Source: an uncultured archaeon
GTDB lineage: Archaea; Asgardarchaeota; Lokiarchaeia; Sigyniarchaeales; SOKP01
NCBI GenBank assembly: GCA_964486045.1
Contig: CAZALK010000011.1
Location: 1 to 64,000 of the forward strand
Direction of reading: 5' to 3'
Length of the DNA stretch: 64,000 nucleotides
Position numbers and translations under genes: made by a program. Position 1 is the stretch's first letter. Every line of letters starts with the position of its first letter. The notes beneath the pieces are model-generated. The model saw nothing but the letters and a program-made list of their open reading frames with translations. It was not told the origin of the DNA and ran no database searches. Positions 27,082 through 31,591 of the stretch are shown piece by piece.

Positions 27082-28275
27082 ATGAAATTAACACAAGAAG
27101 AACAGGATATGCTGAGTGGTAAATTCGGAAAAGCAGCTAAAAAATCTATGGAAATATTAACAACTTTAGGAGAAATTTTTGATGCTAAGTATATGATTGA
27201 TGTCTATGGAGTCCAAATAGCTGGCGTTTCCTATGCTAATCTTGGGGAGGCAGGATTGGAATTTTTAAGCGAATTGGCTGAAGATGGCAAAGTTCGTGTT
27301 CTAACAACTTTAAATCCAGCTGGTATGGATCGTGAGAATTGGCAAGCATTAGGAATAGATAAAGAATTTGCTAAAAACCAGAATCGCGCTATTGATGCAT
27401 TTGCTAAAATGGGTATTATTACTACATGTTCTTGTACGCCATATTTAATAGGTAACGCTCCACATTTTGGTCAACATATTGCTTGGGCTGAGAGTAGTGC
27501 TGTATGTTATTCAAACTCTGTAATTGGTGCTCGGACTAATCGTGAGGGGGGGCCAAGTGCATTAGCTTCGGCTTTAACAGGAAAAACGCCTTATTATGGA
27601 TATCATTTGGATGAAAATCGTCATGGTGAGGTTTTAGTAAATGTGGATGCCACAGTAAAAGGCACCGATGAATTTGGTGTTTTAGGAAAGATAATTGGAG
27701 ATAAGCTGGGAGAGTTAGAAAAAAAAATACCATACATAACAGGAATCCCCTCTGCTACGGTTGAAGAGCTCAAATCCTTCTGCGCTTCTGTTGCCACATA
27801 TGGTGGAACAGCATTATTCCACATGGAAGGAATAACACCAGAATACAATAAATATCCCAAACCAACTGAAATTAGGATTGAAATTAATCAAGCAGATTTA
27901 GATAACACTCGATCTGAGCTCATTGATGATGATATTGAAGTTGATTTTGTTAGTGTTGGATGTCCTCATGCCTCGATTCACGAAATAGCTGAGATATCAA
28001 ATTTATTGAAAGGAAAGAAAGTAAGAAAAGAATTTTGGATTACTACAGCTCGACCTACAAAAAGAATTGCAGATGAAGCGGGGTATTCTAAAATAATTGA
28101 AGATTCCGGAGCAAAATTCGCAGCAGATACATGCTGTGTTGTAGCCCCAATTAAAGAGCGTTTTAAAGGAATTATGGTAGACTCAGCAAAGGCGTGTTAT
28201 TATGGTCGAGCAAAAAATAAATTTAAAGTAAAAATCGGATCAATTGAGGAATGTATCGAGGAGGCAACAAGATGA
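27082..28275 (+). CDS. Aconitase X catalytic subunit (phosphomevalonate dehydratase large subunit)
   Basis: QIAGVSY, TTLNP, CSCTPY, WAESSAV, GARTNREGG, GCPH and DTCCVVAP motifs. Confidence 0.9.
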   Translation: MKLTQEEQDMLSGKFGKAAKKSMEILTTLGEIFDAKYMIDVYGVQIAGVSYANLGEAGLEFLSELAEDGKVRVLTTLNPAGMDRENWQALGIDKEFAKNQNRAIDAFAKMGIITTCSCTPYLIGNAPHFGQHIAWAESSAVCYSNSVIGARTNREGGPSALASALTGKTPYYGYHLDENRHGEVLVNVDATVKGTDEFGVLGKIIGDKLGELEKKIPYITGIPSATVEELKSFCASVATYGGTALFHMEGITPEYNKYPKPTEIRIEINQADLDNTRSELIDDDIEVDFVSVGCPHASIHEIAEISNLLKGKKVRKEFWITTARPTKRIADEAGYSKIIEDSGAKFAADTCCVVAPIKERFKGIMVDSAKACYYGRAKNKFKVKIGSIEECIEEATR

Positions 28276-28661
28276 AGCTAATGGGAAGAAAAATTTACAA
28301 AGGAATTGCTGAAGCAGAAGCAATTGTTACAAAAGATGGAATTTCATTTTATGGAGGAGTTGATCCTGATACAGGTAAAGTGGTAGAGGTTGGGCACGAA
28401 CTTGAAGGCCAATCAATATCTGGAAAGGTTTTGGTCTTCCCAACTGGTAAAGGATCAACTGTAGGATCTTATACGATGTATAGAATGAAGAAAAACAATA
28501 CAGCCCCAGTAGCAATTGTGAATAAAGAAATTGATACCATTGTAGCGGTGGGCTGCATTATTAGTGAGATTCCTTGCGTTGATAAAATTGATCTAAATAG
28601 CATTAAAAGTGGACAAATAATTATTGTTAATGGCTCTGAAGGAACTGTAGAGGTAAAATAA
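28272..28661 (+). CDS. Aconitase X swiveling subunit (phosphomevalonate dehydratase small subunit, DUF126)
   Basis: ISFYGGVDP.TG and GKGSTVGSY motifs. The ATG at 28272 overlaps the upstream TGA (ATGA). Confidence 0.9.
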   Translation: MKLMGRKIYKGIAEAEAIVTKDGISFYGGVDPDTGKVVEVGHELEGQSISGKVLVFPTGKGSTVGSYTMYRMKKNNTAPVAIVNKEIDTIVAVGCIISEIPCVDKIDLNSIKSGQIIIVNGSEGTVEVK

Positions 28662-29628
28662 ATGGGTAATGGAAAAGGATACGGAAAAACCATATTATTT
28701 GGTGAAATTTATTTCTCATTTCAGGAGTAAACGCTAACATTTTGTCGTGTATGGTCTTCCAGCAATTGCATCAGCATTAGGTTCTTATTCAACTGCAAGC
28801 GTGAAAGTTTTGGAGGGGGCTGGTTGGTTTGTTGATGATAAAAGACCTGCTACATCAGGCTATAAAAAAAAGAAATATCAGGAAGCAATGCAATCAATCA
28901 AGAACGTGCTTGAATATCTGAAAATAGACACCGAAAGTCAAAAACTTGAAATTACTTTTGCGGGAGATTTATTTGCTGCGAGTGGGGTAGGAGCCTCGGC
29001 AGCTCAATGTACATCACTCTCACGCGCGTTAAACGACACATTTGATCTAAAATTAAACGATGAGAAAATAAATGAAGCCGCTTATGAAGGAGAAAAAGCC
29101 TACCATGGAACACCTTCAGGAATTGACAACACTGCTTCCACTTATGGTGGTTTAATTTGGTTTGCGAAAAACTTACATGGTGGTAAAAATACGATGGAGC
29201 TTCTACAAACCCCAAAAAAGATGTTTTTGGTGATTGCAAATTCAGGAATAACTGCATCAACCACAGAAGTAGTAGCTGATGTTAGACATTTAAAGGAAAA
29301 TAATCCGGATAAATTTGAAAAAATATTCACCGAGTATAAAAATTTAGCCGGAAAAGCGAAAGAAGCGTTGATAACAGGAGATGTTAATACTTTAGGTAGT
29401 TTAATGAATCAAAATCATAAACTGCTTCAAGAAATCACAGTTTCAGGGGAAATAAATGATAAATTAGTTGATATATCGATCAAAAACGGTGCCATTGGGG
29501 CTAAAATGACCGGAACAGGTCGAGGTGGCTTGGTCATTGCGTTGGTTGAAAATAAAGAAATTCAAGAAAATATCGCCGAAGCTGTCGAAAAGGAAGGTTA
29601 TGATGCATGGAAAACCATGATTGGATAA
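28662..29628 (+). CDS. mvk: Mevalonate kinase, join(28662..28706,28738..29628), 311 aa after removal of a 31-nt intron-like insert
   Basis: Exon 1 MGNGKGYGKTILFGE plus exon 2 HFVVYG restores the GHMP GK.ILFGEH.VVYG motif. Also SGVGASAA, HGTPSGIDN and GAKMTGTGRGG. The ATG directly abuts the upstream TAA. Confidence 0.9.
28707..28737 (+). other. Putative bulge-helix-bulge (tRNA-endonuclease type) intron, 31 nt
   Basis: Central helix GGUG(28701-04)/CGCU(28732-35), bulges AAA(28705-07) and AAC(28736-38), intron stem UUUAUUUCU/AGGAGUAAA. Canonical cuts after the second bulge nt give the exact in-frame junction. Confidence 0.82.
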
Positions 29629-30457
29629 GAGAGAATCAATATTGAATAAAAAAATAAATATTATTATATTAAAATTAGGCGGAAGTTTATTAACTGATAA
29701 AAATAGCCCTTTTTCTATTAGAGAAGATATTGTCAAAGATTCAGTTCGACAAATTATTGATTCGAAAGAGAGACTAATATTAATTCATGGAGGAGGTTCT
29801 TTTGGGCATCCTCTCGCAAAAAAATACAAGATTAAAAATGGATTCGATTCCTCAGTTCCAAATCAAGTTCTTGGTCTTACTGAAACTCATCATTCGATGA
29901 ACAATTTCAATTCTTTTATGATTAAAAGTTTTTTAGAAATGAACTATCCTGCATTTTCAATTCAAGCATCTAGCATCTTCATTAGAGATTCACTAGAAAT
30001 TACAATGTTTTCAATGGGAATAATTGAAACAGCTTTAGATCTTAATATTTTACCAATTTTGTACGGTGACATTATACTTGATAAGCAAGGTTCCTTCTCA
30101 ATTATTTCGGGAGATCAAATAATTCTAGAATTATGTAAAAATTTAGACAGATATTGCATTTCGAAAGTTATATTCACAATGGAGACAGATGGAATATATG
30201 TTACAGATAAAAAAAATAGTGATAGTTCTATATTGGCTACGGAATGCTATCCTGATCAGCTGGAAAACCTAAAATTAGCTAATCTTGGTCAAAAAATAGA
30301 CGTTACTGGTGGTATTAGAGGAAAAATTAAATTCATTCAAAAAATTTGTAATCATAATATACCTGTCCAATTAATAAATGGACTAAAAGAAGATTACATC
30401 TATAAATCCCTCAAAGATGAAAAAATAAATTGTACAAATATACTAATAAAAAGATAG
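29621..30457 (+). CDS. ipk: Isopentenyl phosphate kinase
   Basis: ILKLGGSLLTDK, HGGGSFGH, PILYGD, SGD and DVTGG motifs. Confidence 0.92.
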   Translation: MDKRESILNKKINIIILKLGGSLLTDKNSPFSIREDIVKDSVRQIIDSKERLILIHGGGSFGHPLAKKYKIKNGFDSSVPNQVLGLTETHHSMNNFNSFMIKSFLEMNYPAFSIQASSIFIRDSLEITMFSMGIIETALDLNILPILYGDIILDKQGSFSIISGDQIILELCKNLDRYCISKVIFTMETDGIYVTDKKNSDSSILATECYPDQLENLKLANLGQKIDVTGGIRGKIKFIQKICNHNIPVQLINGLKEDYIYKSLKDEKINCTNILIKR

Positions 30458-30466
30458 TTTGAAATT

Positions 30467-31591
30467 ATGACAAGTAGTAACCATAAAGAAGATAAAATGC
30501 ATGAACAAAATCAGACTAAGGGGATAATGGAAAGAAAAATAGAACATCTTAGAATCCCCTTAGAACATGATGTACAACATTCCATAAATTATTTTAAAGA
30601 CATTAAATTGATTCATCATCCTATCCCCGATTTTGATTTAGAGGATATAGACCTCTCAATTAATTTCTTTGGTAAAAAAATTTCTGCCCCGATATGTATC
30701 TCCGCAATTACGGGTGGTCATCCCATTTCTAAAGATATTAATGAGATTTTGGCTAAAGCCGCTGAAGAAGAAGGTATTATAATGAGTGTAGGCAGTCAGC
30801 GCGCTGGTATTGAAGAATCAACTTTATTAAATTCCTTTAAGATTACACGTGATGTTGCACCTAATATACCAATCATAGGAAATATTGGTATAGGTCAAGT
30901 AAGTAATCCAAATTTTGAAATAAGGGATTTTCACGAATGCATCAAAATGGTTGATGCTGATGTAATGGCAATTCATTTAAATATTTTACATGAATTAGTC
31001 CAAGATAAAGGAGATACCTCGTATAAACCATTTCGCGAAAATTTCACAAAAATTCGAAATAAATATAAAATTCCAATAATAGCAAAAGAAGTTGGAACGG
31101 GGTTTAACTCCGATTTAGCCTTTAGCCTTGATAAACTCGGGTTTGATGGATTTGACATTGGAGGGACTGGAGGGACTAGTTTTGCCGCAATTGAATCTAA
31201 ACGTAATAACTTCGATAATCAAAAATACACCCGAGATCCTGCTGATGTATTTAGAGAATGGGGTATACCTACTCCTGTCAGTATTGTGTATGTCAGAAAT
31301 GTATCTCAGAAATTAATCATTGCCACTGGTGGTTTAAGAACAGGAATAGATATAGCCAAATCAATAGTATTAGGGGCTGACATTGGAGGGTTTGCTTATA
31401 AATTTCTCCAATCTGCATGGCAAGATAGAAAGGATAAATCCATTTTTAAAACAGTCAGGGAAATTAGAACGTTAAAAAATGAATTACGTACCTGTTTATG
31501 GTTAATGAACCAGGAAAAGATTATTGATTTAAAAGGTAATAAAAGTAAGTGCGTTGTTTTAGGTGACCTATATCGATGGTTAAAACAATAA
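30467..31591 (+). CDS. fni: Type 2 isopentenyl-diphosphate delta-isomerase
   Basis: RK.EH, AITGG, VGSQR, HLN.LHE..Q..GD, KEVG.G, GGTSF, WGIPT and ATGGLRTG motifs. Confidence 0.93.
   Translation: MTSSNHKEDKMHEQNQTKGIMERKIEHLRIPLEHDVQHSINYFKDIKLIHHPIPDFDLEDIDLSINFFGKKISAPICISAITGGHPISKDINEILAKAAEEEGIIMSVGSQRAGIEESTLLNSFKITRDVAPNIPIIGNIGIGQVSNPNFEIRDFHECIKMVDADVMAIHLNILHELVQDKGDTSYKPFRENFTKIRNKYKIPIIAKEVGTGFNSDLAFSLDKLGFDGFDIGGTGGTSFAAIESKRNNFDNQKYTRDPADVFREWGIPTPVSIVYVRNVSQKLIIATGGLRTGIDIAKSIVLGADIGGFAYKFLQSAWQDRKDKSIFKTVREIRTLKNELRTCLWLMNQEKIIDLKGNKSKCVVLGDLYRWLKQ

What the first reader, a model, noticed from the sequence alone, without database searches (positions are those of the whole stretch)
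28662..28760. Bulge-helix-bulge intron inside the mevalonate kinase mRNA
Seen in sequence: the conserved GKTILFGE|HFVVYG motif is split by 31 nt (28707-28737). Read unspliced, the gene gives a 22-aa peptide ending at TAA 28728-30. The junction folds into a 4-bp central helix GGUG/CGCU with two 3-nt bulges (AAA, AAC) and a 9-bp intron stem UUUAUUUCU/AGGAGUAAA with a 6-nt loop. The exon side closes with only one U-A pair, but a further exon-exon stem ACCAUA(28689-94)/UAUGGU(28750-55) is available. Established: the archaeal splicing endonuclease EndA cuts after the second nt of each bulge and RtcB ligates. Applying that rule gives cuts after 28706 and 28737, exactly the in-frame junction. mRNA introns of this type are rare, the best-known case being crenarchaeal cbf5. 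Inference: this Asgard archaeon must splice an mRNA to make a membrane-lipid precursor enzyme. Speculatively this is a regulatory switch, loosely analogous to RtcB-ligated XBP1 splicing in eukaryotes.
Basis: partly seen in the sequence, partly recalled or inferred. Interest (0 to 1): 0.95.

Follow-up and report, generated by a model that had tools for sequence, protein, structure and literature searches.

The report
Spliced mini-intron in Asgard mevalonate kinase
The only mevalonate kinase gene of this Asgard (Promethearchaeota) archaeon is broken by a 31-base hairpin shaped like a tRNA intron. Relatives keep it at the same codon while the protein stays under selection, so the mRNA is very probably cut and rejoined by the tRNA-splicing enzymes, although no RNA data were available to show it.

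Summary
A 31-nt insert (28707-28737) lies between Glu15 and His16 of the GKTILFGE|HFVVYG motif. Both usable reading frames are closed by TAA, so frameshifting cannot rescue the gene.

- **Real DNA:** four runs from three studies carry the insert.
- **Conserved:** 26 of 41 same-genus orthologues have a 30-31 nt insert at the same codon, and other MAGs have 28-31 nt versions. 15 orthologues have the exact GAA|CAT junction without it.
- **Protein under selection:** exon 2 dN/dS is 0.12 with the insert and 0.11 without. Exon 1 keeps its start codon, Shine-Dalgarno and all 15 codons. Exon 2 has no conserved start.
- **RNA under selection:** a Gly third base covaries with an intron base in the central helix (C-G 21, U-A 3, U-G 1). 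Synonymous diversity beside the insert is 0.15 versus 0.42 in intronless genes, but 0.415 versus 0.417 elsewhere.
- **Geometry:** a relaxed bulge-helix-bulge (BHB) motif, with no adjacent outer helix.
- **Machinery:** a catalytic EndA alpha subunit with a crenarchaeal-type loop, a His-less beta subunit and RtcB are all encoded.
- **Not isolated:** a scan recovered like inserts in other genes, including the only rpoA1.

No RNA data exist, and the XBP1-like switch idea has no support. Earlier notes of this scan report similar introns in this and other genomes.

The parts
28650..28654 (+). Shine-Dalgarno-like GAGGT, 7 nt before the ATG of exon 1
   Evidence: Read. A GGAGG or GGTGA element sits at the same place in all 41 orthologues.
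28662..28706 (+). Exon 1 of mevalonate kinase: 15 codons, MGNGKGYGKTILFGE
   Evidence: The peptide pattern is identical in 26 intron-bearing and 15 intronless orthologues. It aligns without gaps to solved mevalonate kinases through the intact orthologue.
28707..28737 (+). 31-nt intron (relaxed BHB type), with an in-frame TAA at 28728-30 and TAA at 28735-37 in the downstream frame
   Evidence: Inserts of 28-31 nt sit at the same codon in 32 distinct relatives' sequences, each with at least one stop. The insert is present in DNA contigs from three studies.
28701..28704 (+). Central helix H, 5' strand (GGUG, exonic; Gly14 codon plus the G of Glu15)
   Evidence: Pairs with 28732-35. Alignment column 29:59 covaries C-G 21, U-A 3, U-G 1 with no mismatch.
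28705..28707 (+). 5' bulge AAA; predicted cut after 28706
   Evidence: Geometry. Cleavage between the 2nd and 3rd bulge nucleotide is seen in the EndA-RNA crystal structure (PMC12397907).
28708..28731 (+). Intron hairpin h': 9-bp stem 28708-16/28723-31 with loop 28717-22
   Evidence: 83% of cells are paired across 25 distinct sequences, and three pairs change on both sides. All length changes fall here.
28732..28735 (+). Central helix H, 3' strand (CGCU, intronic)
28736..28738 (+). 3' bulge or loop AAC; predicted cut after 28737
   Evidence: Two nucleotides 3' of the H strand, symmetric to the 5' site, giving the in-frame GAA|CAT joint. In the minimum-energy fold 28736-37 pair with 28699-700.
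28688..28694 (+). Distal exon-exon stem, 5' strand (A/G-ACCAUA)
   Evidence: Found by RNAfold and RNAalifold. ACC (Thr10) occurs in 24 of 25 intron-bearing genes and 0 of 15 intronless ones.
28750..28756 (+). Distal exon-exon stem, 3' strand (UAUGGU-C)
   Evidence: GGT and CTT codons are favoured only in intron-bearing genes.
28738..29628 (+). Exon 2 of mevalonate kinase (296 codons plus stop)
   Evidence: TIGR00549 scores 217.7 bits (cut-off 163), matching from profile position 11. dN/dS is 0.12.
27082..28661 (+). Upstream operon genes: AcnX large (27082-28275) and small (28251-28661) subunits
   Evidence: Pfam AcnX E 1.5e-152 and AcnX_swivel_put E 1.1e-35. The role in the archaeal mevalonate pathway comes from established knowledge.
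29621..31591 (+). Downstream operon genes: isopentenyl phosphate kinase (29621-30457) and type 2 IPP isomerase (30467-31591)
   Evidence: NCBIfam NF040647 at 221.9 bits and TIGR02151 at 342.4 bits, both over their cut-offs.

Best explanation
The 31 nt at 28707-28737 are an archaeal tRNA-type (relaxed bulge-helix-bulge) intron in the mevalonate kinase pre-mRNA.

In the transcript, exon bases GGUG (28701-04) pair with intron bases CGCU (28732-35). The intron's own hairpin stacks on one side. A distal exon-exon stem (28688-94/28750-56) closes the other side.

The heterotetrameric EndA cuts two nucleotides 3' of each strand of the short helix, after 28706 and after 28737. RtcB then joins the 2',3'-cyclic phosphate and 5'-OH ends. 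The result is GAA|CAT and an intact 311-aa enzyme with the GKTILFGEHFVVYG motif.

Shown here: the insert, its conservation, its shape, covariation, selection on both exons and on flanking synonymous sites, and the presence of the enzymes. Inferred: the cleavage and ligation themselves.
For: 1. **Interruption cannot be read through.** Frame 0 stops at 28728-30 and the exon-2 frame is closed at 28735-37. The 30-nt variants are in frame but carry stops.
2. **Real DNA.** Four runs from three studies carry it.
3. **Same codon in relatives.** 26 of 41 same-genus orthologues have it, and more Promethearchaeota MAGs do too, with lengths 28, 30 and 31 nt. 15 orthologues have the exact junction without it.
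4. **Gene is functional.** Exon 2 is always 295-296 open codons. dN/dS is 0.12 with the insert and 0.11 without, at dS of about 1. Exon 1 keeps its start codon, SD and peptide in all, and exon 2 has no conserved start.
5. **It is the only mvk.** It is the sole locus above the TIGR00549 cut-off in a 99% complete genome. It matches from profile position 11 and lies in a mevalonate-pathway operon. The intact orthologue aligns ungapped over the junction to solved kinases (2HFS, E 5e-78).
6. **Structure.** 88% of cells are paired versus 34-48% when partners are slid. The central-helix pair covaries C-G, U-A and U-G with no mismatch. All 32 distinct sequences have at least 3 of 4 central pairs at the homology-defined junction.
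7. **Exon flanks are constrained at the RNA level.** Third-position diversity in exon-1 codons 8-15 is 0.152 with the insert and 0.424 without. The rest of the gene is 0.415 versus 0.417.
8. **Enzymes.** One EndA paralog resembles the A. pernix alpha subunit (3P1Z_B, E 1e-33) and aligns through the crenarchaeal loop region. My reading finds candidate catalytic Tyr, His and Lys motifs in it. The second paralog lacks the His. RtcB is present. PMC5829648 assigns (alpha-beta)2 EndA with the L1 loop to Asgard.
9. **The same cut rule works elsewhere in the genome.** It restores conserved motifs in other genes, including the single rpoA1, which has one TAA inside.
Against: - No RNA evidence: no RNA run was listed for this DNA.
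- The motif is not canonical. Only one U-A pair lies next to the 3' bulge.
- The first central pair is G-U in 8 sequences and a G-A mismatch in 17 of the 25 distinct sequences.
- The minimum-energy fold of this genome's sequence pairs away the 3' bulge.
- In a few relatives the AU-rich hairpin has no predicted stability at 37 C.
[quoted passage not shown] The shape alone is therefore weak; the weight rests on conservation and covariation.
- My genome-wide structure-plus-ORF scan was not enriched over chance (413 versus 403).
Confidence: 0.8

Rival explanations
1. The insert is removed from the RNA, but by machinery other than EndA/RtcB, for example an unknown nuclease and ligase pair or another RNA-guided process. 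The BHB-like shape would be incidental or serve another role.
For: The motif is relaxed: 3 of 4 central pairs in most relatives and no adjacent outer helix. Relaxed shapes are common by chance. No cleavage assay or RNA data are available.
Against: The cut sites predicted by the EndA rule coincide exactly with the homology-defined joint here and in rpoA1, thiolase, GH57 and the BcrAD ATPase. The exon base in the central helix covaries with the intron base. EndA of the broad-specificity class and RtcB are encoded. No other excision system for about 30-nt inserts is known in archaea.
Confidence: 0.07
2. Programmed translational bypassing: the ribosome hops over the 31 nt, as in T4 gene 60 or the byp elements of Magnusiomyces mitochondria. 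No RNA cutting is involved.
For: The inserts are short (about 30 nt), form hairpins, carry stops and appear in many genes of one genome. This resembles mitochondrial byps (own knowledge). No RNA data exclude it.
Against: There is no matched take-off and landing pair. The take-off codon would be GAA, but the triplet before CAT is TAA, AAT, TAT, TAG or AAA in different species. The codon after GAA is ATT, not a stop. Bypassing does not explain pairing and covariation between the Gly14 third base and the 3' end of the insert. It is unknown in archaea.
Confidence: 0.05
3. Exon 2 is translated on its own as an N-terminally truncated kinase, or as a two-piece enzyme with the 22-aa peptide, and the insert is never removed.
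For: This genome has an in-frame GTG at 28747, codon 4 of exon 2.
Against: The first in-frame start in exon 2 varies across relatives (codon 3, 4, 14, 25, 45, 51, 61, 78 or none in 100 codons). Exon 1 keeps its SD, start and all 15 codons in every species. The product would lack the Gly/Lys-rich half of the conserved N-terminal motif, which aligns to all solved mevalonate kinases.
Confidence: 0.03
4. The gene is a pseudogene inactivated by a small insertion, and another kinase does the job.
For: A GHMP kinase on contig 12 scores 153.6 bits on TIGR00549, just under the 163 cut-off. Some same-genus genomes carry a different, classic mvk next to HMG-CoA reductase.
Against: dN/dS is 0.12 at dS of about 1 across 25 intron-bearing species, equal to the intronless genes, with no further stops or indels. 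The contig-12 protein has GDK where mevalonate kinases have GEH. The classic type is not found in this genome.
Confidence: 0.03
5. Assembly or sequencing artefact.
For: None found.
Against: Independent contigs from a second sample at depth about 255, and from two other studies, carry the insert. So do dozens of independent MAGs.
Confidence: 0.01

Closest known systems
BHB intron of the cbf5 pre-mRNA in Crenarchaeota (Watanabe 2002; Yoshinari 2006; Yokobori 2009, PMC2738675)
   Same: A short intron (cbf5: 16-44 bp) in a protein-coding gene that interrupts a conserved or catalytic motif. It has an unconventional BHB-like motif attributed to the heterotetrameric endonuclease. Length need not preserve the frame. 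Presence and absence are lineage-specific among close relatives.
   Different: The gene (mevalonate kinase) and the phylum (Promethearchaeota, Asgard) differ. The 3' site lies in a loop closed by a distal exon-exon stem. It is not a lone case in its genome. cbf5 splicing was shown experimentally; this one is inferred.
Archaeal tRNA introns cut at hBHBh', HBh' or BHL motifs by EndA and joined by RtcB
   Same: Same geometry: a 3-4 bp central helix and a 3-nt 5' bulge, with cuts two nucleotides 3' of each helix strand (for the cleavage position). The intron hairpin is h'. EndA alpha/beta and RtcB are encoded. Asgard tRNA genes are reported to be heavily interrupted (preprint).
   Different: The host RNA is an mRNA, so the exons are constrained by coding. 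There is no tRNA body to help recognition, and no adjacent outer helix of two or more pairs.
HAC1/XBP1 mRNA splicing (Ire1 cleavage, RtcB or Trl1 ligation) in eukaryotes
   Same: Non-spliceosomal, protein-catalysed excision of a short intron from an mRNA, with ligation of 2',3'-cyclic phosphate and 5'-OH ends that changes the reading frame (own knowledge; PMC5829648 cites RtcB in HAC1 splicing).
   Different: The nuclease (Ire1) and the recognition motif (two 7-nt loops) differ. The eukaryotic event is regulated by stress. No sign of regulation is seen here.
Programmed translational bypassing (T4 gene 60; byp elements of Magnusiomyces mitochondria)
   Same: Short hairpin inserts with stops inside otherwise intact genes.
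   Different: The defining matched take-off and landing codons are absent. Exon-intron base pairing covaries.

Membership tests
Archaeal BHB-type intron (EndA substrate) | Central helix of 4 bp flanked by two 3-nt bulges on opposite strands | tested here: met
   This genome has GGUG/CGCU, 4 of 4 pairs (two are G-U), with bulges AAA and AAC. Of 32 distinct relatives' sequences, 10 have 4/4 and 22 have 3/4, the latter with a G-A at the outer pair.
Archaeal BHB-type intron (EndA substrate) | Canonical hBHBh' form: outer exon helix of two or more pairs directly next to the 3' bulge | tested here: not met
   Only U28700-A28739 pairs, followed by U-U mismatches. The next helix is 5-10 nt away. It can therefore be filed only as a relaxed HBh'/BHL-type motif.
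Archaeal BHB-type intron (EndA substrate) | Inner helix h' formed by intron sequence | tested here: met
   A 9-bp stem here. 83% of cells are paired across relatives, three pairs change on both sides, and all indels are confined to this hairpin.
Archaeal BHB-type intron (EndA substrate) | Cuts between the 2nd and 3rd bulge nucleotide give the functional joint | tested here: met
   The rule gives cuts after 28706 and after 28737, producing GAA|CAT. This is identical to the junction in 15 intronless orthologues. The rule is taken from PMC12397907.
Archaeal BHB-type intron (EndA substrate) | Host encodes an endonuclease able to cut relaxed motifs, plus the RtcB ligase | tested here: met
   Two EndA paralogs are present. 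One resembles the A. pernix alpha subunit and aligns through the loop region; candidate Tyr/His/Lys motifs are my reading. The other lacks the His, as a beta subunit does. One RtcB is present. The Asgard (alpha-beta)2 type with L1 loop is per PMC5829648. Activity was not assayed.
Archaeal BHB-type intron (EndA substrate) | Intron is absent from mature RNA (spliced joint, excised or circular intron) | not testable with these tools
   No RNA run was listed for this DNA.
Pre-mRNA BHB intron of the cbf5 kind | Short intron inside a coding sequence whose removal is needed for a conserved motif, kept while the gene stays under purifying selection | tested here: met
   It splits GKTILFGE|HFVVYG. dN/dS is 0.12. 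It is the only mvk over the cut-off.
Programmed translational bypass | Matching take-off and landing codons, and a stop directly after take-off | tested here: not met
   GAA versus TAA, AAT, TAT, TAG or AAA. The next codon is ATT.
Programmed +1 frameshift | Overlap of the open 0 and +1 frames at a slippery site | tested here: not met
   Frame 0 ends at 28730 and the +1 frame opens only at 28738. The 30-nt variants need no shift yet carry stops.
Mevalonate kinase (TIGR00549) | Score above the curated cut-off, and the N-terminal GxxILxGEH motif | tested here: met
   Exon 2 alone scores 217.7 bits against a cut-off of 163, from profile position 11. Exon 1 supplies the missing N-terminus, as in the intact orthologue.

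The most novel reading that the evidence does not exclude
The mvk intron may be one member of a genome-wide, evolutionarily dynamic population of about 30-nt EndA/RtcB-spliced introns in protein-coding genes of this Promethearchaeota genus. Essential single-copy genes such as rpoA1 are included. Routine protein-catalysed mRNA splicing would then be part of normal gene expression in Asgard archaea, with introns gained, lost and exchanged between close species.
Probability: 0.6. Interest if true: 0.92.

Novelty: new member of a known kind. Interest (0 to 1): 0.8.

Why it matters
In the papers I could search, endonuclease-spliced introns in archaeal protein-coding genes rest essentially on one gene, cbf5 of Crenarchaeota. 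A 2025 paper on archaeal splicing endonucleases still cites only that work. I found nothing on mRNA introns in Asgard archaea; the one Asgard intron preprint treats tRNA genes only.

Here the enzyme that opens the isoprenoid-lipid pathway appears to depend on mRNA splicing in a member of the archaeal group closest to eukaryotes. The same genome shows like inserts in its only RNA polymerase A' gene and in several metabolic genes.

If RNA data confirm it, gene callers are systematically mis-annotating such genes as truncated or split. The evolution of split genes and mRNA splicing in the lineage that gave rise to eukaryotes would also become directly testable. The case offers a clean natural data set of 26 intron-bearing and 15 intronless orthologues for studying intron gain, loss and structural constraint.

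Tried and rejected
- **RNA evidence.** Two searches of public runs listed no RNA holder for this DNA. Expression and splicing could not be examined.
- **Metagenome scan for a spliced-type joint** (intron-type exon flanks joined directly). It gave six contigs. All are intronless alleles of other, mostly distant, relatives on what look like genomic DNA contigs with neighbouring sequence. This says nothing about splicing.
- **Genome-wide count of such introns** by a structure filter plus an ORF-fusion filter.
  - The strict version gave 413 hits against 403 expected by chance.
  - The relaxed version showed only small excesses at 30, 32 and 33 nt.
  - Short spacers between co-directional ORFs and AU-rich hairpins swamp the signal. 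The scan works only as a way to find candidates, and I give no total.
- **Weak scan candidates.** A PurF-like site at contig 20 (10030-10062) and the downstream half of the MoxR-like gene gave no Pfam match. The AIR-synthase-like, HdrA-like and AMP-phosphorylase-like cases are only partly supported, because the domain hits abut the insert rather than clearly span it.
- **Rfam.** No family matched the region; one chance hit scored far below threshold.
- **Mobile repeat.** No other copy of the intron sequence exists in the genome.
- **ARAGORN as a census of tRNA introns.** It found only 31 tRNAs, many misnamed (Pyl, Stop), so it is not usable for comparing tRNA-intron motifs.
- **Frameshift, bypass, separate translation, pseudogene and artefact** were considered and rejected; see the rival explanations.
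Full report
**1. The observation**

The sequence is exactly as described.
- An ATG at 28662, preceded by GAGGT, opens 15 codons (MGNGKGYGKTILFGE) ending at 28706.
- Then come 31 nt (28707-28737).
- At 28738 the sequence CAT TTT GTC GTG TAT GGT (HFVVYG) opens 296 codons that run to the stop at 29626-28.
- Read straight through, the gene gives a 22-aa peptide ending at TAA 28728-30.
- The downstream frame is also closed by TAA 28735-37, immediately before CAT. In this genome no +1 frameshift can connect the two parts.

RNAfold reproduces the proposed structure.
- It finds the 9-bp intron stem (28708-16/28723-31), the helix GGUG/CGCU (28701-04/28732-35) and the exon-exon stem (28689-95/28749-55).
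- The 45-nt core folds at -9.1 kcal/mol, z = -3.2.
- The minimum-energy fold also pairs U28699 and U28700 with A28737 and A28736. The 3' 'bulge' therefore exists only if those two weak pairs open.

In this 31% GC genome, a 4/4 central helix with at least 9 contiguous inner pairs occurs at 6e-6 per position and length. That is rare enough that its coincidence with the homology-defined junction is not chance.

**2. Is it real DNA?**

Yes.
- Public contigs of a second sample from the same study cover 28472-28849 without a difference, at depth of about 255.
- Contigs from two other studies are about 90-95% alike, so they come from relatives. They run through the insert without gaps.
- No insert-free form was seen.

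**3. What the gene is**

- Exon 2 alone scores 217.7 bits on the mevalonate kinase equivalog TIGR00549 (cut-off 163). The match begins at profile position 11, so the N-terminus is missing.
- It is the only locus in the genome above that cut-off (99% complete, 7.8% contamination).
- The next best is a GHMP kinase on contig 12. It scores 153.6 bits and has GDK where mevalonate kinases have GEH.
- Some same-genus genomes have a different, classic mvk next to HMG-CoA reductase. That type is not found here.
- The split gene lies in an operon with AcnX large and small subunits, isopentenyl phosphate kinase and type 2 IPP isomerase. By established knowledge this is the archaeal mevalonate pathway.
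- The intact orthologue of a relative aligns ungapped across the junction to solved mevalonate kinases (Leishmania 2HFS, E 5e-78; also S. aureus, Methanosarcina and M. jannaschii).

**4. Relatives**

Close relatives are titled Promethearchaeota or Promethearchaeia MAGs, which supports the Asgard assignment.
- 41 same-genus genomes have the orthologue (74-81% identity).
- 26 of them carry an insert at exactly this codon boundary: 24 of 31 nt and 2 of 30 nt.
- 15 have the uninterrupted GAA|CAT or GAG|CAT junction.
- A wider scan added inserts of 28, 30 and 31 nt.
- All 32 distinct insert sequences contain at least one stop in the exon-1 frame.
- The 30-nt variants are in frame yet still blocked by stops. 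The insert length is therefore not tuned to any recoding mechanism.
- Length differences lie only in the hairpin.

**5. Selection on the protein**

- Every complete exon 2 is 295-296 open codons.
- Median pairwise dN/dS is 0.124 among 25 intron-bearing genes and 0.113 among 14 intronless ones, at dS of about 1.1.
- Exon 1 keeps a start codon (ATG or TTG), a GGAGG or GGTGA element upstream, and the peptide GxGKG[YF]GKTILFGE in all 41.
- Exon 2 has no conserved in-frame start. The first one falls at codon 3, 4, 14, 25, 45, 51, 61 or 78, or there is none in 100 codons.

Both exons are therefore translated, and translated together.

**6. Selection on the RNA**

These counts use a 26-sequence alignment (A2; column c equals window position 28674 + c).
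- The named structure has 88% of cells paired, against 34-48% when 3' partners are slid by 1-3 columns.
- In the central helix, the third base of the Gly14 codon pairs with an intron base as C-G (21), U-A (3) or U-G (1), and is never mismatched.
- The neighbouring pairs are G-C (25) and G-C/G-U (23/2).
- The outermost pair is G-U in 8 sequences and G-A in 17.
- RNAalifold independently predicts the 3-bp core, the hairpin and an extended exon-exon stem.
- Third-position diversity in exon-1 codons 8-15 is 0.152 in intron-bearing genes and 0.424 in intronless ones.
- In codons 17-296 the two groups are equal (0.415 and 0.417).
- Codon choices fit the pairing:
  - Gly14 is GGC or GGT, never GGA or GGG.
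  - Thr10 is ACC in 24 of 25 intron-bearing genes and in 0 of 15 intronless ones. Its C pairs with a G of the TATGG segment.
  - Phe13 is always TTT.

The exon flanks are thus under RNA-level constraint only when the insert is present.

**7. Distribution on the gene tree**

On a maximum-likelihood tree of exon 2, the intron state needs 6 changes, at least 3 of them forced by well-supported branches. Intronless alleles nested among intron-bearing ones have exon-1 codon usage like other intronless alleles. Exchange of the 5' end between lineages, or rapid relaxation after precise loss, are both possible. I did not resolve this. The pattern parallels the lineage-specific loss described for cbf5 (PMC2738675).

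**8. The machinery**

- The genome has two EndA paralogs and one RtcB.
- The 201-aa paralog is most like the catalytic alpha subunit of the heterotetrameric A. pernix enzyme (3P1Z_B, E 1.4e-33). The alignment runs without gaps through the loop region specific to crenarchaeal-type enzymes.
- From I read candidate catalytic Tyr, His and Lys motifs in that paralog.
- The 200-aa paralog lacks the His at the aligned position, as a structural beta subunit would.
- PMC5829648 reports that Asgard archaea have (alpha-beta)2 EndA with the L1 loop, and that this class cuts relaxed motifs.
- The crystal structure in PMC12397907 shows cleavage between the central and third bulge nucleotide, and states that BHL-type relaxed motifs are substrates for some enzymes.
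- Applied here, that rule gives cuts after 28706 and 28737, which is the homology-defined joint.

**9. Context in the same genome**

Earlier notes of this scan (unchecked AI notes) list many about-30-nt BHB-like inserts in other genes of this genome, so I ran my own blind scan. It required a 4-nt helix, 3-nt bulges, an inner stem, and fusion of two ORFs.

As a statistic it fails: 413 hits against 403 expected. It did, however, recover sites where the same cut rule restores well-known motifs.

Pfam domain alignments run as one stretch through the stop-bearing insert in four genes:
- RNA polymerase A' (contig 13, 44101-44130; the motif GHFGH|IELARP)
- a BcrAD/BadFG-type ATPase (contig 7, 54809-54835)
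- a thiolase (contig 3, 186175-186204)
- a GH57 enzyme (contig 22, 58713-58742)

The rpoA1 locus is the only PF04997 match in the genome and has one TAA inside. An organism whose only RNA polymerase A' gene carries such an insert must remove it. That makes the same reading for mvk much more credible.

Less clear cases are a MoxR-like AAA ATPase, an AMP/thymidine-phosphorylase-like gene, an HdrA-like gene and two AIR-synthase-like genes. The mvk intron sequence has no other copy in the genome, so these inserts share shape, not sequence.

**10. Rivals**

- Frameshifting is excluded by the closed frames.
- Bypassing lacks matched take-off and landing codons and does not explain the covariation.
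- Separate translation of exon 2 lacks a conserved start and ignores the conservation of exon 1.
- The pseudogene reading is contradicted by dN/dS.
- The artefact reading is contradicted.
- Excision by unknown machinery cannot be excluded without biochemistry.

**11. Comparison and novelty**

The closest known case is the cbf5 pre-mRNA intron of Crenarchaeota. It is short (16-44 bp), has an unconventional motif, is cut by a heterotetrameric endonuclease and shows lineage-specific loss. The mvk intron works like it and meets the features I could test, except the canonical outer helix. It is therefore a relaxed HBh'/BHL-type member.

My literature searches found no report of endonuclease-type introns in Asgard protein-coding genes. 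The Asgard tRNA-intron preprint does not mention mRNA.

I rate the single intron as a new member of a known kind. The apparent genome-wide population is the more novel reading, and I give it separately.

**12. What is not shown**

Splicing itself is not shown, because no RNA run was listed. Nothing supports a regulatory, XBP1-like role.

Noticed in passing
G000 contig 13: 44101-44130 (locus L086/L092): The only RNA polymerase A' (rpoA1) locus of the genome carries a 30-nt insert with an in-frame TAA inside the GHFGH|IELARP motif. It is flanked by a 4/4 helix and 3-nt bulges. The Pfam Rpb1 domain 1 aligns through it as one stretch.
   Followed up: partly
G000 contig 7: 54809-54835; contig 3: 186175-186204 and 187694-187725; contig 22: 58713-58742 and 24549-24580; contig 7: 186723-186752 and 192030-192059; contig 5: 195271-195300; contig 1: 759271-759300: Further 27-32 nt BHB-like inserts appear in a BcrAD-type ATPase, a thiolase, a MoxR-like AAA ATPase, GH57, cdhA, an AMP/thymidine-phosphorylase-like gene, an HdrA-like gene and two AIR-synthase-like genes. 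The first, second and fourth were confirmed by single-stretch Pfam alignments; the rest are only partly supported or were seen by eye. Most lie in the 5' half of their genes.
   Followed up: partly
window 28472-28849, run X2 record 3: A lower-depth (18x), about 92% identical contig in the second sample matches 28472-28684 and 28723-28849, with 3027 other bases in between. A related strain seems to have a different arrangement or an insertion at the start of mvk. Many intron-bearing relatives also have a different upstream context and a TTG start.
   Followed up: no
same-genus genomes G007 and G021 (L025: 166-2421): Some species of the genus lack this mvk type. They carry instead a classic archaeal-type mvk (323 aa, about 35% identity) directly after HMG-CoA reductase. 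Two non-orthologous mevalonate kinases are therefore patchily distributed in one genus.
   Followed up: partly
intact orthologue L007:1456-2388: This Asgard mevalonate kinase type is far closer to the Leishmania major enzyme (2HFS, E 5e-78) than to solved archaeal ones (about 1e-24 to 1e-27).
   Followed up: no
whole genome G000: ARAGORN finds only 31 tRNA genes, 20 with 'introns' of 6-964 nt, and several are called Pyl or Stop. This fits heavily and non-canonically interrupted tRNA genes, as a recent preprint reports for Asgard archaea.
   Followed up: no
G000 contig 12: 73622-74566 (L002:1213-2157): A 314-aa GHMP kinase scores just under the mevalonate-kinase cut-off and has a galactokinase-like N-terminus (PGRICLMGDKVDLLG). 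Its substrate is unknown.
   Followed up: partly
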